Virus genome (UHGV): UHGV-1987395
Source of the DNA: a virus
Length of the DNA: 13,355 bases
Reading direction: 5' to 3' (one strand)
The position numbers and the translations under genes are program-made. The notes beneath the pieces were generated by a model. That model had not been told where the DNA came from and made no database searches. It saw nothing but the letters and a program-made list of their open reading frames with translations. Positions 1 through 13,355 of this stretch are shown here, piece by piece (position 1 is the first letter of the stretch; every line of letters starts with the position of its first letter).

Positions 1-1
1 A

Positions 2-346
2 GATGAGCACGGTTATCCGATTCTGACAAGTGATGAGATGAACGCCAAATACAAAGGGATTCAGGCAACATTTAAGGATCGGAAGAGCATTAAACTCTCT
101 GAATTGCGAGATGCATTTTACGGGCCGGAGGTGATGGATAAAATTAAAGGCACCGTTGAGGGTAGAATCTGGAAAGAAGATGATTATTGGCATTTAACAG
201 AACAGGCCCTTAAGGTGGCTCAACATGTAGCTAAAAGAGGTAAAACAATTATCATCGATTATATTAGTCATGGCTATGATGCCCCGAAAGAAAGATTGTG
301 GAACAACTGCAAGCTTGTAAAAGGCGAATTAACCATTACAAAATAA
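2..346 (+). CDS. hypothetical protein, 5'-truncated at window edge
   Basis: Frame is open from position 2 to the TAA at 344-346; the first in-window ATG is at 38. No family recognised. Confidence 0.4.
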   Translation, partial: DEHGYPILTSDEMNAKYKGIQATFKDRKSIKLSELRDAFYGPEVMDKIKGTVEGRIWKEDDYWHLTEQALKVAQHVAKRGKTIIIDYISHGYDAPKERLWNNCKLVKGELTITK

Positions 347-2283: not shown

Positions 2284-4404
2284 ATGGCAATGAAGGAAGT
2301 AGCCAAGCTAACAAACGTTATTTACTGGGATTCTGATAAATCCTCCTGGCGAAAAGAAGTTAAACGGCTTGAGGATTATAAAAAATCCTGGAAGAAAGCT
2401 ACCGACGATATAGCTAAAGCGGATTTTAAATCGAATCAGGCTGTGCTCAGAACACAAAGAACACGCGCTAAGGTGGAAGAGCAGATTGCCAGAGCTCAGA
2501 GGAAACAACAGGAAGCACAGAAGAAACAACGTGCTCAGGCTGTCAGCCGTCTGACCGGGGGCAATAATCCGGAGCTCTCCTCTATGCGCAAGTTCTATCA
2601 GCAGCAAGCCAGAGAGGCCGCCAGACAACAAAAACTGTTAGATCGTAGTGTTGGAGATGTTCAGCACAGAAAAGCACGTGTAGGGGCCAACAGTGCACGA
2701 ATCAGCAGTATGTTTGATGGCTCCCTGGTTGCTCAGTTCCAAAGCAGAATCCAGAGAGTTAATGCTGATTATGCTAAAGGGGCTATCAACCTGCAGACCT
2801 ATAATCAGAGGATGGCCCGACTCAGATCTGAAATGAAGATGGCAACAGCTGAAGCCGGAAAATTCCAGAGCAGACTAGATAAACTGGCATCAGGTGCCAG
2901 CAAGGTGCATGACAACCTGGGCAAAATCAACTCCACGCTGGGCAAGATAGCCATTGGCCTTACTGCCGCTGGCTGGGGTGTTCAGCGTGCTGTTAGTGGT
3001 GCTATGGGTAGCCTTGCAGATCGCAACAGTGCCTACTTCGGTTTGATGGCACAGAACAAGGATGATAAAGCCAAGACTGATCAGCAGATGGCTTTTATCA
3101 AGAACACAGCCTACACCTATGGGATGGATGAGCGGGAGATGCAAGGGGGCTACATGCGCTTTGCTGCAGCTACCCCCACCATGAAGGAATCTGATAAGCA
3201 GGCTCTCTTTGAGGCTATGGCTATTAAAGGCCGCTCAGTGGGTGCTACTGGCGAGCAACAGAACAGGGCGCTTGTTGCGGTCCAACAAATGGCTTCAAAG
3301 GGAAAAGTTATGGCGGAAGAGCTGCGGGGCCAACTGTCAGAAGCCTTTGCAGGCTCACAACAGGACTTCCAACAGGCCGCTATTGATGCCGGAATCATCA
3401 AAAATACCCAGGAATTCGATAAAGCCCTTAAAGATGGCAAAATCACCCTGGACAAACTTCTTCCCTCTCTGGTGAAAATCTGGGGTGCAGCAAAAGAAAC
3501 TAAAGCTTTTGCTGAATCCATGAAACAGCCAGAAGTAGCAATGCAGCGCATGAAAAACAGCTTTAACGAGCTGGCGATTCAGTTTATGGGTGTTGTGGAT
3601 CCTGCAGATGGCGTTATTAGCTTATCTGAATCTCTAATCTCCATCTTCGAAGACCTCACCACTGATATGGACGGCAGCGGGAGCGCGGCAAAACAGTTTG
3701 GTGAGGCAGTCGGTGCTGCCATGCGGGAGATCATGTATTGGGTAGGCTTCGCTAAGGGATATATTGAGGTCAAGGCTAAAGAGTTCGGCATGACCGGATC
3801 AGAGGTTGGCGAGCTTATCGGGAAACTGGTAGTCGGCTTAGCTGGTCTGAAAGTTATTACCACACTGCTTTCCCCTCTGACCGGATTTGTTTCACTTGTC
3901 ACTCAGCTGATAGCCTTGTTAGGTAAAATCCCTGGTATGAGCAAGCTTCTGGCTTCTGCCTCAGGTGGAACGGCAACAGGAGCAGCGGTCATCAGTGCAG
4001 GATCTAACGCTGAAAGAAGCTTCATTGATGGCAAGACGCAGGAAATGAGTAAGGAGAACTCAAAACAGGGTGCTTTGTTTGAGCTGGGAAGATTTGTCAG
4101 CAATGCTGGCGCACTGTTCACACCTGGCGGCGATACTGGTCCTTTGTTCGATCAGGTCAGAGGCTGGTTTAATAAAGGGCCAACATTGACAGTAGACACT
4201 GGCATCAGACCAACACCGACGGGTGGCATGGCTATCCAGAATGGTGGATATCAACCAGTCCAAGTAAATGTAGCCCCACAAGGTGAGATTTCCGGCAAAT
4301 GGGAGATAACCATCGATGAGGGGGGAATTGCCAGGGTAATTCAGAAGGAAGTCAGCGATCAGTTGGATTGGAAAGCCACACAGGAATCTAACCAGCTTTT
4401 CTAA
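2284..4404 (+). CDS. phage tail tape measure protein
   Basis: 706 aa; N-terminal Q/R/K/A-rich predicted coiled coil; central region (NKDDKAKTDQQMAFIKNTAYTYGMDEREMQGGYMRFAAATPTMKESDKQALFEAMAIKGRSVGATGEQQNRALVAVQQMASKG...) resembles the conserved tape-measure core domain; Gly-rich hydrophobic segment near the C-terminus. Confidence 0.7.
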   Translation: MAMKEVAKLTNVIYWDSDKSSWRKEVKRLEDYKKSWKKATDDIAKADFKSNQAVLRTQRTRAKVEEQIARAQRKQQEAQKKQRAQAVSRLTGGNNPELSSMRKFYQQQAREAARQQKLLDRSVGDVQHRKARVGANSARISSMFDGSLVAQFQSRIQRVNADYAKGAINLQTYNQRMARLRSEMKMATAEAGKFQSRLDKLASGASKVHDNLGKINSTLGKIAIGLTAAGWGVQRAVSGAMGSLADRNSAYFGLMAQNKDDKAKTDQQMAFIKNTAYTYGMDEREMQGGYMRFAAATPTMKESDKQALFEAMAIKGRSVGATGEQQNRALVAVQQMASKGKVMAEELRGQLSEAFAGSQQDFQQAAIDAGIIKNTQEFDKALKDGKITLDKLLPSLVKIWGAAKETKAFAESMKQPEVAMQRMKNSFNELAIQFMGVVDPADGVISLSESLISIFEDLTTDMDGSGSAAKQFGEAVGAAMREIMYWVGFAKGYIEVKAKEFGMTGSEVGELIGKLVVGLAGLKVITTLLSPLTGFVSLVTQLIALLGKIPGMSKLLASASGGTATGAAVISAGSNAERSFIDGKTQEMSKENSKQGALFELGRFVSNAGALFTPGGDTGPLFDQVRGWFNKGPTLTVDTGIRPTPTGGMAIQNGGYQPVQVNVAPQGEISGKWEITIDEGGIARVIQKEVSDQLDWKATQESNQLF

Positions 4405-4504
4405 TGTCCACTCTGTGGATTTGAGTTCTACTCAAACCTGCATAGCAGGCACTGATATTGTGATCAAAATCAATAAGTTAGCCTGACCGGGTAAACTCCA
4501 GGCA

Positions 4505-4537
4505 AGAAAAAAGCCCCTAAGTGTTAACAAAGGGGCT
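4505..4537 (-). terminator. candidate intrinsic terminator, minus strand
   Basis: 7-bp stem AGCCCCT (4512-4518) / AGGGGCT (4531-4537) with a 12-nt loop, followed on the minus strand by TTTTTT (plus A-run 4505-4511). Confidence 0.45.
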
Positions 4538-4957
4538 CTTCTCCGGTATCCTTTTGATGCGGGGCGAACCTGCTAACAAAAATCAACCTCTCGCGAGACT
4601 AATGTTAGCAGGTTGCCGGAAGGTAAGTCAACTCCGGTCTATAAACCTTAAAGCGACTATAAAATCGCCCCGCCAATTGTGATGATCCGACCTTTGAGGC
4701 GGGTCCGGTGCCCAGGGGGGTGCAGTGATGCACAAACCAGGCAACGATAAACAGGCTAACAGTGATAGCGGCGCTCAATCAGCGCACTAAATCCTAACCA
4801 GTCCGGGAAAGAGGCTGGCTCTATCGACCGCTCATGCACGGGACAATGCATACCTGATAAAGGATTCTCACAAGGGACCAATCGCGAGAAAAGAAGAGGA
4901 AAGGGGCTGATTTGTGGTGTATCACTACGGCCTCAAAAGACCTTCTATTGTCTTTTT

Positions 4958-5416
4958 TCAACCTCTCCCCACATTTGACCAGTATTTGATTGCACCGATC
5001 AAATCATCATAGTGGCGCATTGCATCATTGAAGCCTTTATAGCTTGCCCATTGTGGGGAAACCTTGTTATTGCTGAATTGCCCACTAATCAGGATAGTCT
5101 CCAGAATGTCGGCGTATCGCTTGCCAATTCGCTTTCTGACGGCCTCAGAGCTTCCACCCTTTACGATTGCATTAATCAGGGCTTTTGTGTGTCTCAGGCT
5201 CTCATAGAGCATTGCAGCGTGGGCAGATTCCATAAAGGAGCGCTTAGGCAGATCACCCCACCCCTCAGAGTGGATAGCTGCCAGTGTGGCGTAATTCAGG
5301 CCGCTATAGTGCTTTCCGTCATCCCAGCCAACCGCTACACCTTCCATCTGTGAGAGCTCTTTATGCAGCTTATCCATCATGCGCTTGTCTATGGTGCAAC
5401 GGACTTTCGGACTCAT
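4958..5416 (-). CDS. putative virion morphogenesis / head-tail joining protein
   Basis: 152 aa; ATGA start-stop overlap with the upstream gene; segment LAAIHSEGWGDLPKRSFMESA resembles, from memory, the motif of HK97 gp10-like head-tail joining proteins. Weak. Confidence 0.35.
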   Translation of the reverse strand: MSPKVRCTIDKRMMDKLHKELSQMEGVAVGWDDGKHYSGLNYATLAAIHSEGWGDLPKRSFMESAHAAMLYESLRHTKALINAIVKGGSSEAVRKRIGKRYADILETILISGQFSNNKVSPQWASYKGFNDAMRHYDDLIGAIKYWSNVGRG

Positions 5417-6216
5417 TTGTTGATCTCCGTGATGTCATCGAGCAACATGTTGGCCTTATCAATCATCGTTTCGTGGAACTCATTCGACACAACAGACTTA
5501 TCACCTGCGGCAATCTTTCCCGCTGCCTCTCCCTGTGCATATTCCCCGCGATGCTTAGCCCTGGTAGATTTCGTAGCAGCGTTGCCAGCGTTGCTACCCT
5601 CTTTAGCACTGTTAACAGCACCCTTTTGCTGTGTTTTATTCACCTTCTTACTGTTAGTGAAAACTCCGGCATTTTCGACCATCTTCACCTTGAAGGTGCG
5701 GAATTCTTCAAAGGTGCAATCAATAGTGATGCAGTCACCAGAGGAAGAGCTACGCTTAACTTCACATTTCGTCATGATGAAGTTCTCAAGGAGTCCGGCA
5801 TCTTCACTCACCAGGCTGACCAGCTGGCGCTTGTCTCTCATTTCCATAAGTGCCTGAACAGCGGCAGCAGGGCGCATAGATTCACGGGGATTATCTGGAT
5901 CAGTGTTCCGGTCGATGTAGTTCTCTTTCCGGATGATATAAGGGGAAGAGGTAATAATACCCGTAAAGCTGACAGATTTATCTTTAATGACGGCATGGTC
6001 TGACATGGTGGTGCCATCCTCGACCGCATAGCTCGATTTCTCAACAGGGAACGAATAGCTGACATCAGAGATAGAGTCAAAGAAGATAGCCACATTATCG
6101 GTATAGTTGAAGCCATCCATTATATTTTTGTTTTGTGAATATCCCCCACACATAACAGTGAATGCAGGAGATCTCGACTCAGCTTGTTTTGCAGCTGTCA
6201 GAGCATCACTAGCCAT
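5413..6216 (-). CDS. hypothetical protein, probable virion protein by context
   Basis: ORF 5413..6225 in the track; ATG at 6216 has GGAGG 10 nt upstream, while the ATG at 6225 sits 1 nt from the SD. In the capsid operon; no family recognised. Confidence 0.45.
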   Translation of the reverse strand: MASDALTAAKQAESRSPAFTVMCGGYSQNKNIMDGFNYTDNVAIFFDSISDVSYSFPVEKSSYAVEDGTTMSDHAVIKDKSVSFTGIITSSPYIIRKENYIDRNTDPDNPRESMRPAAAVQALMEMRDKRQLVSLVSEDAGLLENFIMTKCEVKRSSSSGDCITIDCTFEEFRTFKVKMVENAGVFTNSKKVNKTQQKGAVNSAKEGSNAGNAATKSTRAKHRGEYAQGEAAGKIAAGDKSVVSNEFHETMIDKANMLLDDITEINK

Positions 6217-6321
6217 ATTAAACATGCCTCCAAAATGAATCTTTTCGTTGCCCTGCTTAAAATCTGCAGAAAATACAGGGCAGTTATTCGTTAGAATCGC
6301 TTATAGCTCTTCCCGAGAGCG

Positions 6322-6686: not shown

Positions 6687-7730
6687 TTATTTAGCCTTGG
6701 CTTTTGCCAGAGCAGCGGCGGCGGAGTTTTTAACACTCACTTTAACCACAACTTCGGGCATCATGTTCATGAAAGCATAAGAGGATTCAACGAAGATTTC
6801 TCGTTTGCCTCTGGACTCTTCCATATACATGAAAGCTTCACGTGCAGCGCCGTTTGCAAGCTTCAGGTTGCGAGCGCAAGGGCCGAAAAATTGAGTATAA
6901 ACGCCCACCATATCGCCTAACGCATGCGGCTGGAACTGTGGGACCAGATAAGCAGTATTCTCTGGCAGACTATCCATTTGCACCACACGCAGAGCTAAGC
7001 CCGGAATGCGGAAGGTCGGGAAGCCCGGCAGAATATCCTCAGGGAACATCAGACCTTTGTCGGTAATATTCTGATTGCCGAACAACAGCACTTTACGGAG
7101 CAGTTCATCAGTCTGAATAGCGGCGAACACCTCAGCACGGCAGAACAGGGTGAAACCACGCAGAGCGCGAACGACACCACGCTGTTTAACCTTGCTCAGT
7201 GCAACCAGGTCCTGCAGTTGTTTGAGAATATCTTGAGCTAGATCCATTTCAGAGGTGGACTGTTCCACGCCCAGCAGTTCGCACACATTCAGCTCTTTAC
7301 CCTTGGTGAGGATAATTTTGTTCTCAAAGAGAGCAAGCTGGCGTGCTTCTTCGTGGGTCTGGCGTAAGCCTTCGCCCAGTTGAATAACACGACGAGCGGT
7401 TACAGACTCTAAATTCTCTTCGGAATCTTTGCCAGGAACACGAATACCCTGCCAGTCAGAAGGATAAATAGCACTTGATGCGGCAGTGAACGCCATATCA
7501 CCCGTGCCCGTTTCACGCTCATCTGCGGTAATGGTCGCCATCTGTTCACCGTAGCGCGGATACTGACCGAAAGCGGTTTGTTTCACCTGGCGAACTTTGT
7601 CATATTCAAATTTAAAGGTATTGCACAGAGCAGTAGTGTTGAAGATATCCATTGCTGAAATAATCTGGTTATCCAGCGGGATGTCTTTAATCAAGCCACA
7701 CAGATCGCGGACTTCGAATTCTTTTTTCAT
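6687..7730 (-). CDS. phage major capsid protein (E-family-like)
   Basis: 347 aa from ATG 7730 with AAGGAGG 6 nt upstream (the 7736 start in the track is TTG); size and position directly after a decoration-like gene match the usual decoration + E-family capsid pairing; Ala/Lys-rich C-terminal tail. Confidence 0.6.
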   Translation of the reverse strand: MKKEFEVRDLCGLIKDIPLDNQIISAMDIFNTTALCNTFKFEYDKVRQVKQTAFGQYPRYGEQMATITADERETGTGDMAFTAASSAIYPSDWQGIRVPGKDSEENLESVTARRVIQLGEGLRQTHEEARQLALFENKIILTKGKELNVCELLGVEQSTSEMDLAQDILKQLQDLVALSKVKQRGVVRALRGFTLFCRAEVFAAIQTDELLRKVLLFGNQNITDKGLMFPEDILPGFPTFRIPGLALRVVQMDSLPENTAYLVPQFQPHALGDMVGVYTQFFGPCARNLKLANGAAREAFMYMEESRGKREIFVESSYAFMNMMPEVVVKVSVKNSAAAALAKAKAK

Positions 7731-7741
7731 CTCCAACCTCC

Positions 7742-8077: not shown

Positions 8078-8567
8078 TTGATCACCTGCGATTTAAATTA
8101 ACTCCCCTCAAAGAGTTCCGGTATAACCTCTCAAACCACGACAGGCTCGGGCCGAAAAGTTATGCCGGAAATCTAAAGGGAAATTGATACAAGGAGAGGG
8201 AGATAGCCCCGCACCGTAGCCAAGCGGGGGCTATTCCACATGGGGAAACCGACAACAGTCGGATGATAGTTCACAGTATGGTTACGGTTACTAGAGAGCA
8301 CTATCACGAAAGGCACTCCCCCGAATCAGTTCAGGCTGCGGTCACATCAGCGGGGAAATACCTTTCGGGATAGCTACCCACACAGAAAACCCGCAAAAGA
8401 AAACTGTGTGGATAACTAGCCCAATAGGAGAATTAATCGACCACTCAACGATGATCAGGGTAGTGTTATTTATAAGGCGGCACCGCTACCTGGTCGCCTT
8501 TACTTTGGAGGAAAATACGGCAAATCAAGATCTTCTCAAATGATATTGATTCCATACTATACTGTAT

Positions 8568-8596
8568 ATTATATCAGTATTTACTCACATTGTCAA
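8568..8596 (-). promoter_or_regulatory. consensus sigma70 promoter reading leftward toward the capsid operon
   Basis: On the minus strand: TTGACA (plus 8596-8591), 17-nt spacer, TATAAT (plus 8573-8568). Perfect match at both hexamers with optimal spacing. Confidence 0.6.
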
Positions 8597-8750
8597 CACC
8601 TTGATTATATAAATTCTAATAATTAGCGTAGTAACGGTATTTTCAGACCTCTATCAATCCCATCAATACGTCACCCCCACCCTTTAGATGCATACATCCG
8701 ACCTACTTTGTAGGCTTGGCGTACTGCCAAGGTCGCAGCTATGCGACTCC

Positions 8751-8783
8751 TATCTATCACCACTTTATAAAGCTTGATAGATA
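8751..8783. promoter_or_regulatory. dyad-symmetric operator-like site
   Basis: TATCTATCA (8751-8759) and TGATAGATA (8775-8783) are perfect inverted repeats, concentric with an inner perfect palindrome CTTTATAAAG (8763-8772); overlaps a candidate -35 TTGATA at 8774-8779. Confidence 0.4.
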
Positions 8784-8926
8784 TCTTTTGATCAATATCA
8801 ATGTTTTCCAGAGATTTACCCGGCTATAGTTCGAATCAAGGAAGGGGAGCATTGATAGAGACACCCAAAGGGGTGACTGAAAGTCACCTGGCATAGCCAG
8901 TGAAAGCACCCAACCGAACAAACAAA

Positions 8927-8944
8927 TCAACTTCTCGCAAAAGG
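8927..8944 (+). promoter_or_regulatory. conserved 5'-UTR motif, copy 1
   Basis: TCAACTTCTCGCAAAAGG ends 8 nt before ATG 8953; near-identical to the copy at 9446-9464. Confidence 0.4.
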
Positions 8945-8952
8945 TGATAGTT

Positions 8953-9075
8953 ATGGGTATCAAGAACAGTGCCAGCGCATGGCAAAAGGCCAGGTTTCAT
9001 CACCCACACATGGTCAAGGCAATTGAGGTGGTTGGAGTTTTAGCCCTGATGTTAGCTCTGTGTGTGGAGGTGTGA
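8953..9075 (+). CDS. possible small membrane peptide (40 aa)
   Basis: AAGGTGA SD; translation MGIKNSASAWQKARFHHPHMVKAIEVVGVLALMLALCVEV has a C-terminal hydrophobic helix; preceded by the conserved TCAACTTCTCGCAAA motif. Below the track cut-off. Confidence 0.25.
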   Translation: MGIKNSASAWQKARFHHPHMVKAIEVVGVLALMLALCVEV

Positions 9076-9076
9076 G

Positions 9077-9157
9077 ATGGGTAAAGGAGGCAAAGAATTT
9101 TTAATAGGTCTGGCAGTCTTAGATTTTGTATTAATCATCATTGAGCGGAGTTTATGA
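9077..9157 (+). CDS. possible small membrane peptide (26 aa)
   Basis: GGAGGTG SD 4 nt upstream; translation MGKGGKEFLIGLAVLDFVLIIIERSL; its stop overlaps the next start as ATGA. Confidence 0.2.
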   Translation: MGKGGKEFLIGLAVLDFVLIIIERSL

Positions 9158-9414
9158 CGGGAACTAAAGATATTAAGAGACTGAGGGAAGAGCTGATAGC
9201 TGAAATTAAAGCTAAGGCAAAGCAAATGGAGATAGCCGCACAAATGGATGTAGCGGAACAGATGTACAAGATGGTTGAGGAGGGAACGCCACGACAGGTT
9301 ATAGCAAAAACCTTCGGTGTGGGGATCGCCACCGTGCACAGAAGGCTGAAAGCCTATGCCGACTACCACAATATCGAGAGAAAGGAGGATGGGAGATTTA
9401 AGAAGAATAAATAG
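9154..9414 (+). CDS. small DNA-binding protein with resolvase/invertase-type HTH
   Basis: 86 aa; charged helical N-terminus; C-terminal GTPRQVIAKTFGVGIATVHRRLK resembles, from memory, the Hin/Gin C-terminal HTH (GHPRQQLAIIFGIGVSTLYRY); no recombinase catalytic domain. Confidence 0.5.
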   Translation: MTGTKDIKRLREELIAEIKAKAKQMEIAAQMDVAEQMYKMVEEGTPRQVIAKTFGVGIATVHRRLKAYADYHNIERKEDGRFKKNK

Positions 9415-9445
9415 TGTGAACAGTCCAATAGGTTATTAACTAAAT

Positions 9446-9464
9446 TCAACTTCTCGCAAAGGGG
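9446..9464 (+). promoter_or_regulatory. conserved 5'-UTR motif, copy 2
   Basis: TCAACTTCTCGCAAAGGGG ends 7 nt before ATG 9472; same motif as 8927-8944. Confidence 0.4.
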
Positions 9465-9471
9465 TACCACT

Positions 9472-10059
9472 ATGAACATTAAAACTATCATTGCAGCCAT
9501 CACCATTGCCTTTAGTGCCAACACTGCAGCTATTGATGTTAATTTATTTCAGAAGATGACTTGCGAAGATAAATTAGTTGCCATGGATAAGGGGCTAGAA
9601 GCCACGCATAATGGGGAACAGTTTCATTTCTCCTTGAAGAATCTTATCTTGCCCCTGGATTCTGCCGCACAGGTATATGCAACATTGGGTAAATTTGAGA
9701 AGCCGGAAATTGACCTGCAGGGCGTGAGAGCGAAGATCACCAAAAGAAATGAAAGCATTTGTGATATAGCGGTTACGGCCCTTATGACAGATGATGAAAA
9801 AACGATTATAGCTACATGCAAAGATAGCAACGACAACGAACGATTCTTTAAGATCACCCACAACAGGCCCGTTTCTTTCTACTCTAATGCCACAATGGGC
9901 GCGGGTATGCAGTGGCTGAAGAGAGCTAAAGTAACTGAGGTTAATGCTGATGACGATTTATCCTATGAATACGGTTTTATTTCCAATTATATGGCGTGGC
10001 ACCTGAAAAAATGCGGCATCAATGGTCAGGCATACGACAATGGATTTTGGTTTTTCTAA
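9472..10059 (+). CDS. secreted/periplasmic protein of unknown function
   Basis: N-terminal signal peptide MNIKTIIAAITIAFSANTAA with an AxA-like cleavage site; AGGGG SD; followed by an intrinsic terminator at 10081-10106; ends in aromatic FWFF. Confidence 0.55.
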   Translation: MNIKTIIAAITIAFSANTAAIDVNLFQKMTCEDKLVAMDKGLEATHNGEQFHFSLKNLILPLDSAAQVYATLGKFEKPEIDLQGVRAKITKRNESICDIAVTALMTDDEKTIIATCKDSNDNERFFKITHNRPVSFYSNATMGAGMQWLKRAKVTEVNADDDLSYEYGFISNYMAWHLKKCGINGQAYDNGFWFF

Positions 10060-10080
10060 CCTATTAAGTTAATCCCACCT

Positions 10081-10106
10081 GGGGGCCATCACGGCCCCTT
10101 TTTATT
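10081..10106 (+). terminator. intrinsic terminator after the secreted-protein gene
   Basis: GGGGCC (10082-10087), loop ATCAC, GGCCCC (10093-10098), then TTTTTATTT. Confidence 0.65.
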
Positions 10107-10108
10107 TA

Positions 10109-10164
10109 TCCCCTATTTAACCCCTATTTAATGGGTATTTAATGCCTATTTATTGATTTAATGG
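10109..10164. repeat. five tandem copies of an 11-bp unit (consensus about CCCTATTTAA)
   Basis: TCCCCTATTTAA / CCCCTATTTAA / TGGGTATTTAA / TGCCTATTTAT / TGATTTAATGG in direct succession immediately after the terminator; 11-bp period is about one helical turn. Confidence 0.55.
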
Positions 10165-11566
10165 TTTTGGGCATTGTTGACAGTGTAAGAGAGAGGATGT
10201 AACCCTTTTTTGTAATACTAATAAAATCAATAGCTTAGCTCAATTGGCCTTTTCTCTGTTTTTGTCAAATTTAACATACCCTAAAAAACTGCAAAATCTG
10301 GCTGCAAGATTATCTGCAGCTGGATTTCTTACACCTCATTTTGTGGTATCACCCTGACTAGTTTGTGCATAAAATGAACAGTTTTTAACATTTCCTCTTC
10401 ACCTGGTAACCACACAAAAAGCTAAAAACGAGGCACAGATAATCTTAGAGGCCTGTTTTCTTGTTATCACTCTAGAAACGTCGTAGAGATGATTTTAATG
10501 AAAGATGACCTACCCTATTACACCCCTATTTTTTGTTATCACAATTGCATCCTGTGCGGTGTATGGCTATGTGCTGAAAGCGGTCTTATGTGTGGGTGTC
10601 AGAAATATCCATTAGCGGTATTAATACCCGTCGGAGATTCGTCTGAGGTGCCAGGCAGGCGCTCCCCCACCTCCCTTTTTTCTTCTAACAATTCTCAAAT
10701 ATCACACCACTGCCGACCACGTTACTACTCTGTTAATTCTTAAGCTTTGCTGTATGTTGTGCACATTATTTATTCAGGTGGCTGTACGTAAATTCTGTGC
10801 CCACTGATCATGATTTTTAAATCAGATTTTGTAGTTCGCTTTATTAGTGTAGATAAGATCTATTATGTTAAATGCAATTTTCCCAACCCTTCAAATCAAT
10901 GACTTACATGTAAGTATGCACTAACACCCCACACAGCACATTAGACGTATAGATGGCTATATCCCACATTTTTGATTGTTTTGTAGTCATTCCCCTGATC
11001 ATTTAACCAGTATAGTTTGTTCTCTGTAGACCACAAAATCGGAATTTACATCTGATTAACATAATCTGTTAGCATGATCACTATTACCCACACAACAATA
11101 ACCCCATGCAAGCCTCTTTAGGCAATTTATCGGCGTGTTGGTGTGAACAGTCTTTCATGTTCTTTATGAATTCATGACTGCAAGGAATGTATTCATTGTC
11201 CTGTGTGGGGGAAGGATGGACTGCCCCAGGGGCCATAGTTATGACACCCGGTCAACATAACTGTCGATAAAATCAACGGGTGTTGGTATGCATATTTCCC
11301 ACACATGAGAGAAAATCAAAGCAAAGAGAGAGGAGAGAGGTTTGCTAGTCAAAATAGGTCAATTGACGGCTAATACAGAGTAAAAAATCAGATGCAATCA
11401 CTCCCCCACCTGTTGGGATTTCCTACAACCCCTTTCAGTCATACTCAGGCACCACACCCCGGTAAATATTACCGCACTAACCTGTAAAGAATTTTCACAC
11501 CTGTGTGTTTATACAGTCATACTCTCCTGTTTTGCAGTCATTGCACCCATGATACACAGCCCCTAA

Positions 11567-11676
11567 CCTGTCAAAATATTTTACTACTTAGCCACTATAG
11601 CTATGCATACCTGTAAAATATTTTTACTACTACCTGTCAAAATACTTTACTACTACCTGTAAAAATATTTGACACT
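11567..11676. repeat. iteron-like 22-bp direct repeats (four copies, plus a degenerate copy at 11481-11500)
   Basis: CCTGTCAAAATATTTTACTACT (11567-11588), CCTGTAAAATATTTTTACTACT (11610-11631), CCTGTCAAAATACTTTACTACT (11633-11654), CCTGTAAAAATATTTGACACT (11656-11676); the last three are spaced 23 bp start to start. Confidence 0.6.
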
Positions 11677-11789
11677 AATAGATAAAGTAATAGACCACAC
11701 AAGATCCCCCCTAACCCCCCAGGGGGAATGGGGAGGGATCAGAGAGTGGGGAAGGTTTTCTAAGGGAAAAGCTTAACCCACAAATGAAA

Positions 11790-11818
11790 GCCTAAAGAGC
11801 ATTAGCGACTCTTTAGGC
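11790..11818. repeat. perfect 10-bp inverted repeat (hairpin or operator)
   Basis: GCCTAAAGAG (11790-11799), 9-nt spacer, CTCTTTAGGC (11809-11818); the half-site CTCTTTAGGCAAT recurs at 11114-11126. Confidence 0.5.
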
Positions 11819-12258
11819 AATATGTGTGTGGGTCACTCTGTGACTTTAGCTATACAGCTAAACCGACTACGTCGGCCTGTGTGTGGGGGTGACAATGTAT
11901 TCCATACATGACACGTCACCCAATTGTGTGTGGTCCGGCGAATGCGTCAGCATGAGGCCCACATGTGGACCGCTGCCGAAAGCTTGCCAGCGCCGGAAGG
12001 AGGCAGCAAAGAGTCTCCCGCGCGGGTGCACGCACACACATACAAAGGATACACTCATAAATCGAAAATAAGCCACCTAAATGGCCTTCTGGCTGCATTA
12101 ACTAGTGTGAGTAGTGCAATTGCATTACCTGACCTCTAAATCGCGTTAGAATCGATTTTAGAGCGCTTAAGGCAAAAAGTGCCCTCCCTTGTGGGCTTGC
12201 TTGTGTCTGCTGTGCAGGCTATGGCACCTATAGCACACCTAAATGATAATAATTCTCA

Positions 12259-12277
12259 TTGACAATTGGTTGACAAT
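12259..12277. promoter_or_regulatory. tandem TTGACAAT boxes (candidate operator or overlapping -35 elements)
   Basis: TTGACAAT at 12259-12266 and 12270-12277, 11 bp apart; a third copy at 12449-12456 forms the -35 of the downstream promoter. Confidence 0.4.
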
Positions 12278-12448
12278 GTGATAAGATTATAAATAGGGGG
12301 AGAAACAGATCCGGAGGTCAATGTGGAAATTACTGATGCAATAGCGATCATCAACCTGGCTGTACTGTGGTGCGGTGTTGCCTACATAGCCGGAGTAACT
12401 GCAATCGACAATCTTGAAGAAAAAATGATAGATAAATACAAAAAGATT

Positions 12449-12477
12449 GTTGACAATTTGACGAATGTCTGATAAAA
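12449..12477 (+). promoter_or_regulatory. sigma70-like promoter upstream of the 71-aa gene
   Basis: TTGACA (12449-12454), 17-nt spacer, TAAAAT (12472-12477). Confidence 0.5.
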
Positions 12478-12605
12478 TATAAAGCATAGGGTAATTCTCA
12501 TCATAGTGAATTTCCTTTAGTAGACTGGCGGGGGCTTGTCTTAAGTTCCCGTTTCTTTTTAATCATATATCGCACAGGTTAGTGAGCTAACAGGAGGCTT
12601 ATACT

Positions 12606-12821
12606 ATGGCTAAAACCGGACCGATCAGCCAGTTGGTAAACTGGACTACTGACGAAATCGTCGAGAACGTACTTAAGGGGAACTTCCGCAAAACTTCCGT
12701 TTATGCATTCATTCGTAAACATAAAGGAGAATATCCACACATTGAAGAAGCAATTTTAAAACTAAATTGCATTCGCCTTGAGCGGGAACTGGCTAAATAC
12801 ACCAATAACATTAATAAATAA
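12606..12821 (+). CDS. hypothetical small protein (71 aa), possible DNA-binding regulator
   Basis: AGGAGG 8 nt upstream of ATG; lies about 130 nt downstream of a consensus-like promoter; no family recognised. Confidence 0.45.
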   Translation: MAKTGPISQLVNWTTDEIVENVLKGNFRKTSVYAFIRKHKGEYPHIEEAILKLNCIRLERELAKYTNNINK

Positions 12822-12835
12822 TTATGGGGGAATTA

Positions 12836-13355
12836 TGGCAAGTAATTACGGGGAAAATTTTACTCCCCTTTTTAAACGTTTCATCAAATACATTTTTAAA
12901 AATCCGATTGCAAAAACTACAACCAATAAAGAAAGATTTCACTTAAACTTGTTGGAAATGACAATTTACGGTGAGATGGCAAGTTTTAATGCTGCAGGTT
13001 GTGAAATATTTATCTCTGAACAGAGATTAGCAGACGATTATGATGTTTCAAGACCGACAGTTATTAACTCGATTAAATCTCTAGAAAATGCCGGGCTTAT
13101 TTCAATAGTTAAAAGTAAAGGCAAATCTAATCATTACAAACTGCTAATTACCCCTGATCAGCTTGGCAAGATGTGTGATGAGCAGGGTATTAAAACCTCC
13201 GACAGTGTGGGATCTAGTAAAGAGGCCCCCGATAATCAACAGGAAGCCCCAAAACAAGCCACACAGCAAGCTAAAAAGGCCGAGGTGGTGCAATTGCCTA
13301 CCCAACCTAAGAACGAGCGCAGAGAGCGCTTTAGAGACGCTGGCAAACGTGAGAA
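12836..13355 (+). CDS. winged-HTH DNA-binding protein, putative replication initiator or regulator (3'-truncated)
   Basis: Open from ATG 12836 to the window end; segment ISEQRLADDYDVSRPTVINSIKSLENAGLISIVKSKGKSNHYKLL is a classic winged-HTH; followed by a low-complexity Q/K/A/E-rich linker. Confidence 0.5.

What the first reader, a model, noticed from the sequence alone, without database searches (positions are those of the whole stretch)
12606..13355. Candidate replication or immunity module at the right edge
A strong RBS drives a 71-aa protein followed closely by a wHTH protein with a low-complexity Q/K/A/E linker, the usual organisation of initiator or regulator pairs. Together with the upstream iterons this suggests the element may replicate autonomously (phage-plasmid-like) rather than only integrate.
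Basis: inference. Interest (0 to 1): 0.4.

Follow-up and report, generated by a model that had tools for sequence, protein, structure and literature searches.

The report
Plasmid replication module: initiator plus iterons
The two genes are the replication module of a 13.4-kb circular E. coli plasmid that carries only part of a phage's head and tail genes; the second protein is very probably the initiator, because its DNA-reading half and four repeated sites 1.2 kb upstream change together across relatives.

Summary
A 71-aa ORF (12606-12821, AGGAGG 8 nt upstream) is followed 13 nt later by a winged-helix protein with a disordered Q/K/A/E linker. The "right edge" is an artefact. The window is a whole circular molecule, and ORF2 runs across the junction into bases 1-346 (288 aa, identical to a database protein). 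Relatives occur in 7 of 5,426 complete E. coli genomes, always as 13.2-13.7 kb plasmids (one 39.6 kb trimer) and never on a chromosome. Draft contigs of 13.3-14.4 kb close on themselves. ORF2 is best read as the iteron-binding replication initiator. Its N-terminal winged helix matches phage initiator families. Across 15 elements the type of its recognition helix predicts the sequence of a fixed four-site iteron array (three blind predictions passed; Mantel r 0.81, p 0.0007), while its C-terminal domain shuffles independently. No helicase or primase is encoded, and nothing supports an immunity switch. ORF1 is a conserved, purifying-selected small helical protein with no detectable relatives outside this family. 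The plasmid carries capsid, neck, tape-measure and tail-tube-initiator genes whose only phage homologues are in rV5-like virulent phages. It lacks terminase and portal, so it looks like a plasmid-resident phage satellite. I found no paper describing it.

The parts
11411..11499 (+). Three single iteron-like sites of other specificity classes, upstream of the cognate array: A-like 11411-11427, D-type CGGTAAATATTACCG 11460-11474, G-type 11483-11499
   Evidence: Sites at the same relative positions (about -190 to -330 from the anchor) occur in all relatives.
11566..11677 (+). Cognate iteron array: four 23-nt semi-palindromic units (ACCTGTCAAAATATTTTACTACT type) at 11566, 11609, 11632 and 11655
   Evidence: 4 found against 0.21 expected. 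The geometry is the same in the 15 elements examined; the sequence class follows the Rep recognition helix.
11675..11737 (+). Conserved origin-adjacent block: the A+T-rich tract CTAATAGATAAAGTAATAGA, then the G/C palindrome CCCCCCTAACCCCCCAGGGGGAATGGGGAGGG (11706-11737). Candidate unwinding or loading region.
   Evidence: Conserved next to the array in all elements, including the divergent L013. The function is inferred.
12259..12287 (+). Promoter-like site P1 (TTGACA, 17 nt, TAAGAT, extended -10) with a tandem TTGACAAT box
   Evidence: conserved in 11 elements.
12323..12472 (+). Conserved 49-aa hydrophobic peptide gene, first gene of the rightward block
   Evidence: Annotated in relatives. 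Function unknown.
12450..12478 (+). Promoter-like site P2 (TTGACA, 17 nt, TAAAAT, 11 of 12 matches, extended -10)
   Evidence: invariant -35 and -10 hexamers in relatives.
12527..12563 (+). Intrinsic-terminator-like hairpin plus T-tract between P2 and ORF1. It would make either a leader or a roughly 75-nt RNA that limits read-through into ORF1 and rep.
   Evidence: The hairpin is kept in 7 of 7 aligned relatives, with no compensatory double changes.
12592..12597 (+). Shine-Dalgarno AGGAGG of ORF1
12606..12821 (+). ORF1: 71-aa conserved helical protein (short helices at 9-12, 15-23 and 29-38, then a long helix at 44-69), function unassigned
   Evidence: 14 clusters, found only in this element family; pLDDT 87; no fold match; purifying selection.
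12835..13355 (+). rep (ORF2), residues 1-173 and two bases of codon 174: N-terminal winged helix (39-116) and disordered linker (120-171)
1..346 (+). rep (ORF2), continued across the circle junction: last base of codon 174, residues 175-288 (compact C-terminal domain of unknown family) and the stop codon at 344-346
   Evidence: P0001, 288 aa, 100% identical; pLDDT 80-92.

Best explanation
The finding is the replication module of a complete, circular plasmid of about 13.4 kb. ORF2 (288 aa, spanning the window junction) is the initiator. Its N-terminal winged helix probably acts as a dimer, because each site is a short inverted repeat around an A/T tract. It binds the four 23-nt iterons at 11566-11677, about 1.16 kb upstream of its own gene. 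Binding next to the conserved A+T-rich tract and G/C palindrome (11675-11737) would open the DNA. The C-terminal domain, tethered by a 50-residue disordered linker, would recruit a replisome that the plasmid does not encode. That means host DnaB/DnaC/DnaG/Pol III for maintenance, and possibly helper-phage enzymes during infection. ORF1 sits just upstream of rep; the 13-nt gap suggests they are co-transcribed and probably translationally coupled. The pair lies behind a strong promoter (P2) and an intrinsic terminator that should keep expression low. ORF1's own role is unknown; a small helical regulator or accessory factor is my guess. What is shown: the coordinates, the circularity, the plasmid-only distribution, the fold class, and the co-variation of recognition helix with iteron class. 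What is inferred: DNA binding, origin firing, the partner of the C-terminal domain, and attenuation.
For: Circular, plasmid-only element:
- Four PLSDB records of 13.2-13.7 kb plus one trimer.
- 7 of 5,426 complete genomes carry it; 9 places, all on plasmids.
- k-mer terminal overlaps on independent draft contigs.
- ORF2 reads through the junction to a protein 100% identical to P0001.

Initiator-like protein:
- 12 of the 14 PHROG families matched at E<=1e-3 are replication-initiation, O-like or DnaD-like; the best is phrog_270 at 4.7e-12.
- Pfam HTH_36 passes its cut-off.

Specificity link:
- The array sits at fixed offsets (-106, -62, -40, -17 from a conserved anchor) in all elements, but in four sequence classes.
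- The class follows the N-terminal type and recognition helix of Rep in 14 of 15 elements; the exception (L005) has a different initiator.
- Three predictions made from the helix before the DNA was read all passed. Three later loci also agreed.
- Mantel test: iteron identity against the N-terminus r=0.81, p=0.0007; against the C-terminus r=-0.27, not significant.
- Window and L011 share 82% N-terminal identity yet have different iterons, and they differ in the recognition helix (SRPTVINS against TEKTVRSA). Window and L012 share the helix and 98%-identical iterons despite only 71% N-terminal identity and a different C-terminal type.

Natural swap:
- L005 carries a non-homologous O-like initiator in the same slot, and a new set of three 26-nt repeats appears beside the old array.

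No other candidate:
- Only the tape measure (706 aa) and the capsid protein (349 aa) exceed 300 aa.
- No other ORF matches any replication family, and Rfam finds no ColE1-type RNA.
Against: There is no experimental binding or origin mapping. The fold is a generic winged helix shared with MarR, CodY and TubR regulators, and NCBI annotates the protein only as an HTH protein. It matches no curated plasmid Rep family (Rep_3 and RepA_N are absent). No DnaA box lies near the array. The iterons are 1.16 kb from the gene, with other modules in between. Co-variation between linked loci can partly reflect co-inheritance. L005 keeps an A-type array without an A-type Rep. The C-terminal domain has no recognisable relative, so helicase recruitment is a guess. 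MOB-suite, as quoted by PLSDB, lists no replicon type for these plasmids.
Confidence: 0.75

Rival explanations
1. ORF2 is a transcription factor (repressor or immunity protein), the repeats are its operators, and replication is started by something else.
For: The fold and best structural matches are MarR, CodY and GntR-type regulators. One database name reads 'winged helix-turn-helix transcription repressor' (P0089). Co-variation shows specific binding, not initiation.
Against: The sites are not at the P1 or P2 promoters, and no further copy exists in the window. The layout is four or five tandem sites next to an A+T tract, not one or two operators. The PHROG matches are nearly all initiators. 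The plasmid has no other initiator candidate and no RNA-primed origin detectable with Rfam. There is no divergent cI/cro-like gene pair.
Confidence: 0.1
2. ORF2 is a centromere-binding adaptor of a partition system and the array is the centromere.
For: TubR-type winged-helix centromere binders appear among the weak hits (4aso and 3m8e). Centromeres are also arrays of repeats that co-evolve with their binder.
Against: No ParA, ParM or TubZ-type NTPase, nor any NTPase domain, is encoded. No PHROG or Pfam partition family is matched. It would leave the plasmid without an initiator.
Confidence: 0.05
3. ORF2 and the iterons are an origin used only during helper-phage infection, as with PLE RepA, and day-to-day plasmid maintenance uses a different, unrecognised origin in the large non-coding regions.
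For: About 3.3 kb of the plasmid is non-coding (8078-9153 and 10060-12320). It holds other repeats: 11-nt units at 10100-10151, and a TGTGTGGG motif found 10 times against 0.37 expected. The terminator between P2 and ORF1 suggests low basal expression. The element is related to rV5-like phages.
Against: No second initiator gene exists. A host-only origin would need DnaA boxes or an RNA primer, and neither was found near the repeats. The diversification of Rep and iterons into classes is what incompatibility between co-resident plasmids would select.
Confidence: 0.08
4. The 'plasmid' is an assembly artefact or a fragment of a larger phage genome, so no autonomous replicon is needed.
For: One record is a 39.6 kb trimer with frameshifted copies. 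The gene content is partly phage structural.
Against: There are closed circular records from seven independent complete genomes. More than ten independent draft contigs of 13.3-14.4 kb have k-mer overlaps at their ends. The ORF1 protein clusters list about 258 contigs in total. Megablast against 50,697 phage records finds no match.
Confidence: 0.02

Closest known systems
RepA_N-type initiators (staphylococcal pSK41/pTZ2162 RepA; PLE RepA of the Vibrio cholerae satellite of phage ICP1; PMC7145576)
   Same: Two-part protein: an N-terminal DnaD-like winged helix that binds iterons, and a variable C-terminal domain of unknown partner, with no helicase or primase activity. [quoted passage not shown] Carried by a satellite-like element linked to a virulent myovirus.
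   Different: No Pfam RepA_N (PF06970) match at E<=1 on residues 1-173 or at E<=0.01 on the full protein. The DnaD_N match is below threshold (17-18 bits against 27). The array lies 1.16 kb upstream of the gene. The element is a resident plasmid, not an integrated island.
Phage HTH_36 / lambda O-like / DnaD-like replication initiators (PHROG 270, 186, 678, 391, 345)
   Same: N-terminal HTH_36 winged helix followed by a low-complexity linker. The best profile matches are to these families.
   Different: Only the N-terminal roughly 125 residues align. The C-terminal domain is unrelated. No P-like helicase loader or DnaB/DnaC-type gene follows. The origin is not inside the gene. tblastn finds no match in 50,697 phage records.
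Classical iteron plasmids with Rep_3-family initiators (pSC101, R6K, F, P1, pPS10)
   Same: Directly repeated sites of about 22 bp next to an A+T-rich stretch, and an initiator encoded in cis. Specificity classes are expected to behave as incompatibility groups.
   Different: No Rep_3 domain. No DnaA boxes at the origin. No inverted half-iterons at the rep promoter. One winged helix plus an unrelated C-terminal domain, rather than the WH1-WH2 pair.
Phage satellites (P4, PICI, capsid-forming PICI, PLE)
   Same: Size of 13-14 kb. A partial set of virion genes with homologues in one phage group: rV5 ORF48 49%, ORF56 45%, ORF49 27%, ORF60 24%. No terminase or portal. Its own replicon.
   Different: No integrase and no chromosomal copies; it lives as a plasmid. 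It carries tail genes (tape measure, tube initiator) as well as a capsid gene. Helper dependence is untested.
Phage-plasmids (P1, N15, SSU5 groups)
   Same: Extrachromosomal element with phage structural genes and a plasmid-type replicon.
   Different: Far too small and incomplete to make a virion on its own. There are no lysis, packaging, portal or baseplate/fibre genes.

Membership tests
Iteron-type theta replicon (functional class) | Three or more directly repeated sites of 17-23 bp, in phase, at one locus | tested here: met
   Four 23-nt units at 11566-11677, with the same geometry in 15 elements.
Iteron-type theta replicon (functional class) | A cis-encoded initiator whose specificity matches the iterons | tested here: met
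   By comparison only: the recognition-helix type predicts the iteron class. Binding itself was not tested.
Iteron-type theta replicon (functional class) | A+T-rich unwinding element beside the iterons | tested here: inconclusive
   A conserved 20-nt A+T tract at 11675-11694 is followed by a G/C palindrome. It is short, and unwinding was not tested.
Iteron-type theta replicon (functional class) | DnaA boxes at the origin | tested here: not met
   TTWTNCACA occurs only at 8407 and 10364, which is the chance level.
Rep_3 (PF01051) plasmid initiators | Rep_3 domain (WH1-WH2) | tested here: not met
   No Pfam match at E<=0.01 on the full protein, or at E<=1 on residues 1-173.
RepA_N (PF06970) | Sequence match to the RepA_N N-terminal domain | tested here: not met
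   Absent from the Pfam results.
RepA_N (PF06970) | DnaD-like N-terminal fold | tested here: inconclusive
RepA_N (PF06970) | Semi-palindromic iterons whose arms converge on an A/T tract (PMC7145576) | tested here: met
   GTCAAAATATTTTAC, CGGTAAATATTACCG, TGGAATTTCCCA and CTGAAGATTTCTCAC.
HTH_36 (PF13730) phage/plasmid initiator N-terminal domain | Pfam gathering score reached | tested here: met
   26.2-27.3 bits against a cut-off of 25. Precomputed HTH_36 hits are also on record for most relatives. The margin is small.
Lambda O-type replication module | Origin repeats inside the initiator gene, and an adjacent helicase-loader gene | tested here: not met
   The W core is absent from ORF2. The downstream genes are a 48-aa ORF and then tail genes.
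Phage-plasmid | A complete virion, packaging and lysis gene set on a plasmid replicon | tested here: not met
   Only capsid, a 111-aa ORF, neck/tail-completion, Dit-like and tape-measure genes are recognisable, and no ORF is large enough for terminase or portal.
Phage satellite | Depends on a helper phage for particle formation and transfer | not testable with these tools
   Indirect only: homologues in rV5-like phages and a shared 65-nt non-coding element.
Phage satellite (P4/PICI/PLE types) | Integrase and chromosomal residence | tested here: not met
   No integrase domain in the window. 0 chromosomal places in 5,426 genomes.
Type Ib/III partition centromere binder | Partner NTPase gene in the same operon | tested here: not met
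   No NTPase family is matched by any ORF.

The most novel reading that the evidence does not exclude
The window is one member of an undescribed family of plasmid-resident satellites of virulent rV5-like (Vequintavirus) phages. A modular initiator (recognition domain crossed with effector domain) and its iterons have split into specificity classes, and members compete at the level of replication. Many relatives carry DNA-binding-domain-only copies of another class's initiator while holding none of that class's sites. Each origin, including this window's, keeps single 'orphan' sites of foreign classes.
Probability: 0.3. Interest if true: 0.8.

Novelty: new variant of a known kind. Interest (0 to 1): 0.6.

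Why it matters
The replicon's logic is familiar: an iteron-binding initiator with no enzymes of its own. The protein family, however, is isolated. An exhaustive search of 1.84 billion representative proteins found 21 relatives at E<=1e-3. The family is untyped by plasmid schemes and confined to one family of Escherichia/Shigella elements, for which I found no description in the searchable literature.

The family offers a natural matrix of recognition-helix and iteron pairs: at least four classes, with shuffled effector domains and one complete initiator swap. That makes initiator specificity, incompatibility and helicase recruitment directly testable.

If the link to rV5-like phages is functional, this would be the first satellite-like element of these widely used E. 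coli therapeutic and biocontrol phages, to my knowledge and within the searched library. It would also be unusual among satellites in living as a plasmid and in carrying its own capsid and tail-length genes.

Tried and rejected
- Helicase or primase beyond the right edge: rejected, because the sequence wraps to base 1.
- Rfam over the whole window at E<=1: only a sub-threshold ctRNA_p42d hit (23.6 bits against 50) on the terminator after the tape-measure gene, and no ColE1 or ctRNA control RNA near rep.
- tRNA or att-type integration signals: none.
- DnaA boxes and GATC clustering at the origin: chance level.
- C-terminal domain profile against PDB sequences, and three C-terminal sequences plus P0128 against PHROGs: nothing below E=0.02.
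- ORF1 against Pfam, PHROGs, NCBIfam and PDB folds: nothing. The best are DpnI_C at E=0.12 and Foldseek at E>2.
- Rep by tblastn against phages: no match. Against 72,556 plasmids: only this family.
- Conserved anti-terminator structure in the P2 leader: only the terminator hairpin is conserved, with no compensatory changes. One of my locus ranges (L001) was mis-set and contributed nothing.
- GC skew as an origin marker: it follows gene orientation and is uninformative at this size.
- Literature: eight searches (satellite, Vequintavirinae, rV5, plasmid, accession numbers) found no description. The one paper citing CP043822 only lists the plasmid.

Full report
**What is at the coordinates.** ORF1 runs from 12606 to 12821 (71 aa), with AGGAGG 8 nt upstream of its ATG. 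Thirteen bases after its stop, behind a G-run, ORF2 starts at ATG 12835 and is still open at base 13355. When the window is joined end to start, the frame continues through bases 1-346 to a stop, giving 288 aa. A database protein of exactly 288 aa is 100% identical (P0001). The two ends of the window are therefore neighbours on a circle, and the 'right edge' is only where the record was linearised.

**The window is a whole plasmid.** Megablast finds four PLSDB records of 13.2-13.7 kb that cover nearly all of the window at 91-96% identity, plus one 39.6 kb record that is three tandem units. Among 5,426 complete E. coli genomes, seven carry the element. All nine places are on plasmids and none is on a chromosome. 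Independent draft contigs that encode relatives of ORF2 are 13.3-14.4 kb long. Most end in exact k-mer overlaps of 26-141 nt, which is the signature of a circular assembly path. The ORF2 family comprises 104 clusters at 90% identity, from E. coli, Shigella and E. albertii, almost all on contigs of that one size. The ORF1 clusters list about 258 contigs in total. No phage record matches at the DNA level.

**The test that matters: do the protein and the repeats change together?** I fetched 14 related elements.
- In every one, a four-unit array sits at the same offsets (-106, -62/-63, -40/-39, -17/-16) from a conserved anchor, CTAATAGATAA. The anchor is followed by a G/C palindrome.
- The units fall into four sequence classes: W (this window, ACCTGTCAAAATATTTTACTACT), A (CCTGTTGGAATTTCCCACAGGT), C (CTGAAGATTTCTCAC) and D (CGGTAAATATTACCG). 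Each is a short inverted repeat around an A/T tract, as expected for a dimeric winged-helix binder.
- The alignment of the proteins shows a mosaic. Several N-terminal types are combined freely with three C-terminal types.
- The iteron class follows the N-terminal type, and specifically the start of the recognition helix: SRPT for W, DRGK for A, SDRK for C and TEKT for D.
- From the helices alone I predicted W iterons for the element with P0065, D-like iterons for P0100 (a much more divergent element), and C iterons for P0053 (C-type N-terminus on a different C-terminus). All three held. Three more loci fetched later for another reason were again concordant.
- A Mantel test on nine elements with distinct Rep sequences gives r=0.81 (p=0.0007) between iteron identity and N-terminal identity. 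For the C-terminal domain it gives r=-0.27, not significant.
- Two comparisons argue against simple linkage. Window and L011 share 82% N-terminal identity yet have different iterons, and they differ in the recognition helix. Window and L012 have 98%-identical iterons with only 71% N-terminal identity, the same helix, and a different C-terminal type.
- One element (L005) has an unrelated, O-like initiator in the same slot, and a new trio of 26-nt repeats has appeared beside the old array.

**Why initiator rather than regulator or partition protein.** The W core occurs only at the four array positions in the window (4 found against 0.21 expected) and not at the promoters. No NTPase that could partner a centromere binder is encoded. 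No other ORF resembles a replication protein, and Rfam finds no RNA-primed origin. A plasmid kept in cultured isolates needs an initiator, and this is the only candidate. No helicase, loader or primase is present, so the replisome must come from the host, or from a helper phage during infection. The C-terminal domain is the obvious recruiting surface, but that is inference. The weak points are these: no biochemistry, a generic fold, no DnaA boxes, an array 1.16 kb from the gene, and L005 keeping an A-type array without an A-type Rep.

**ORF1 and expression.** ORF1 is conserved (70-92% identical to the window protein across the 11 aligned relatives). It is under purifying selection (dN/dS 0.05-0.45 at dS 0.5-1.5) and always lies upstream of rep. 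In some relatives an extra gene sits between the two. Its model is confident (pLDDT 87): short helices at 9-12, 15-23 and 29-38, then a long helix at 44-69. It has no fold or family match. Its function is unassigned; a small dimeric DNA-binding or accessory protein is a guess. Upstream, two strong promoter-like sites with extended -10 elements (12259-12287 and 12450-12478) are conserved. So is a terminator hairpin with a T-tract at 12527-12563, which lies between P2 and ORF1. That layout would give a short leader RNA and low read-through into ORF1 and rep. No immunity-type divergent promoter pair exists.

**What the plasmid is.** The only recognisable genes besides the module are:
- a tape measure (TMP_3; phrog_5255 at 7e-164);
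- a Dit-like tail-tube initiator;
- a neck/tail-completion protein;
- a major capsid protein, with a 111-aa ORF in front of it;
- an HTH_7 protein.

No ORF is large enough to be a terminase or portal. Against phage rV5, four of these have homologues: ORF48 at 49% (3e-60), ORF56 at 45% (1e-34), the tape measure ORF49 at 27% (3e-22) and the capsid ORF60 at 24% (5e-10). A 65-nt non-coding stretch is 83-87% identical to intergenic DNA in 119 phage records, mostly rV5-like. The element therefore looks like a satellite of Vequintavirus-type phages that lives as a plasmid. This is inference; helper dependence is untested.

**Comparison with known systems.** In logic the module is closest to RepA_N initiators, including RepA of the PLE satellite. 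These have a DnaD-like N-terminal iteron binder, a variable C-terminal domain, no enzymatic activity, and semi-palindromic iterons converging on an A/T tract (PMC7145576). It is not a member by sequence, since neither RepA_N nor Rep_3 is matched. It passes HTH_36 narrowly and aligns with phage O-like and DnaD-like initiators only over the N-terminal domain. I file it as a new variant of the iteron-initiator kind, on an element family for which eight literature searches found no description.

**A lead on 'immunity'.** Many relatives carry an extra gene between ORF1 and rep that is a DNA-binding-domain-only copy of another class's initiator.
- P0141 (128 aa) is 79% identical to residues 1-120 of the D-type Rep, with an identical recognition helix. 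It sits in A-type elements that contain no D site at all.
- The 166/172-aa proteins are 60% identical to the N-terminal 165 residues of the L005 initiator. They sit in elements that lack its repeats.
- Conversely, each origin keeps single sites of foreign classes. This window has A-like, D and G sites at 11411-11499.

This pattern would fit replication-level exclusion between sibling plasmids. The window itself has no such mini-gene, and the idea is untested.

Noticed in passing
window 11925-12030 (+); also L001, L005, L007, L013 and phages L003, L015-L018: A non-coding element shared with rV5-like phages (83-87% identity over 65 nt in 119 phage records, mostly rV5-like). A 4-nt indel rules out the ORF annotated there in rV5 ('ORF78'). 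One 6-bp helix shows three compensatory double changes between the plasmid and phage copies (CTGCC/GGCAG against CCGAC/GTCGG), which suggests a structured RNA. There is no Rfam match.
   Followed up: partly
window 6145, 8377, 9003, 10589, 10928, 11087, 11202, 11298, 11825, 11880: The octamer TGTGTGGG occurs 10 times against 0.37 expected (0 of 200 shuffles reach 10). It occurs on both strands and nine of the ten copies lie in the two large non-coding regions. It precedes each small structured module upstream of P1. It is only mildly enriched in rV5. Function unknown.
   Followed up: partly
window 2284-4404, 4958-5416 (-), 5413-6225 (-), 6687-7736 (-): The tape measure, neck/tail-completion protein, Dit-like tube initiator and major capsid protein all have homologues in phage rV5: ORF49 27%, ORF56 45%, ORF48 49% and ORF60 24%. 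The parts that would touch helper components are the better conserved. This suggests a satellite that supplies its own capsid and tail-length proteins.
   Followed up: partly
L022 7284-7670, L023 7821-8207, L024 3603-3989; L006 2858-3358 and equivalents in L007-L009 and L014; L001 3560-3925 of the rotated copy: Optional genes between ORF1 and rep are DNA-binding-domain-only paralogues of another class's initiator. They are carried by elements that hold none of that class's binding sites. They may be replication-level exclusion factors. The window has none.
   Followed up: partly
window 11411-11427, 11460-11474, 11483-11499: Single 'orphan' iteron-like sites of foreign classes (A-like, a perfect D palindrome, and G) lie upstream of the cognate array. 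Every relative has a similar set at about -190 to -330 from the anchor.
   Followed up: partly
L005 7582-7685 and gene 9157-10026: One relative has swapped rep for a non-homologous O-like initiator (P0104). It has gained three 26-nt direct repeats plus an A+T-rich stretch right beside the old array, which it still keeps.
   Followed up: partly
window 10100-10151: Four to five tandem 11-nt units (CCCTATTTAA type) lie directly after the terminator of the 195-aa signal-peptide-like gene (9472-10059). They could be a protein-binding array such as a packaging or partition site.
   Followed up: no
whole element; table: Length is tightly held at 13.3-14.4 kb even though Rep diverges to 43% identity. 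Ten units equal about 134-144 kb, close to the 132-144 kb genomes of rV5-like phages. One complete-genome record (L002, 39,610 bp) is a head-to-tail trimer with frameshifted copies. A packaging constraint or concatemer packaging is conceivable.
   Followed up: no
L021 (about 20 kb E. coli contig): A sister family of roughly 20 kb contigs encodes a Rep homologue (P0139, HTH_36), a Dit-like protein, a 732-aa protein and a tyrosine recombinase.
   Followed up: no
window 12323-12472 and 387-533: Two conserved micro-genes flank the module. One is a 49-aa hydrophobic peptide whose 3' end contains promoter P2. The other is a 48-aa very acidic peptide just after rep, replaced by a 53-aa acidic peptide in relatives whose Rep has the second C-terminal type.
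   Followed up: no
window 4502-4542 (-): Weak Rfam hit to ctRNA_p42d (23.6 bits against a gathering score of 50, E=0.24). It is a hairpin with a T-tract just downstream of the tape-measure gene (match reported on the minus strand), most likely only a terminator.
   Followed up: no
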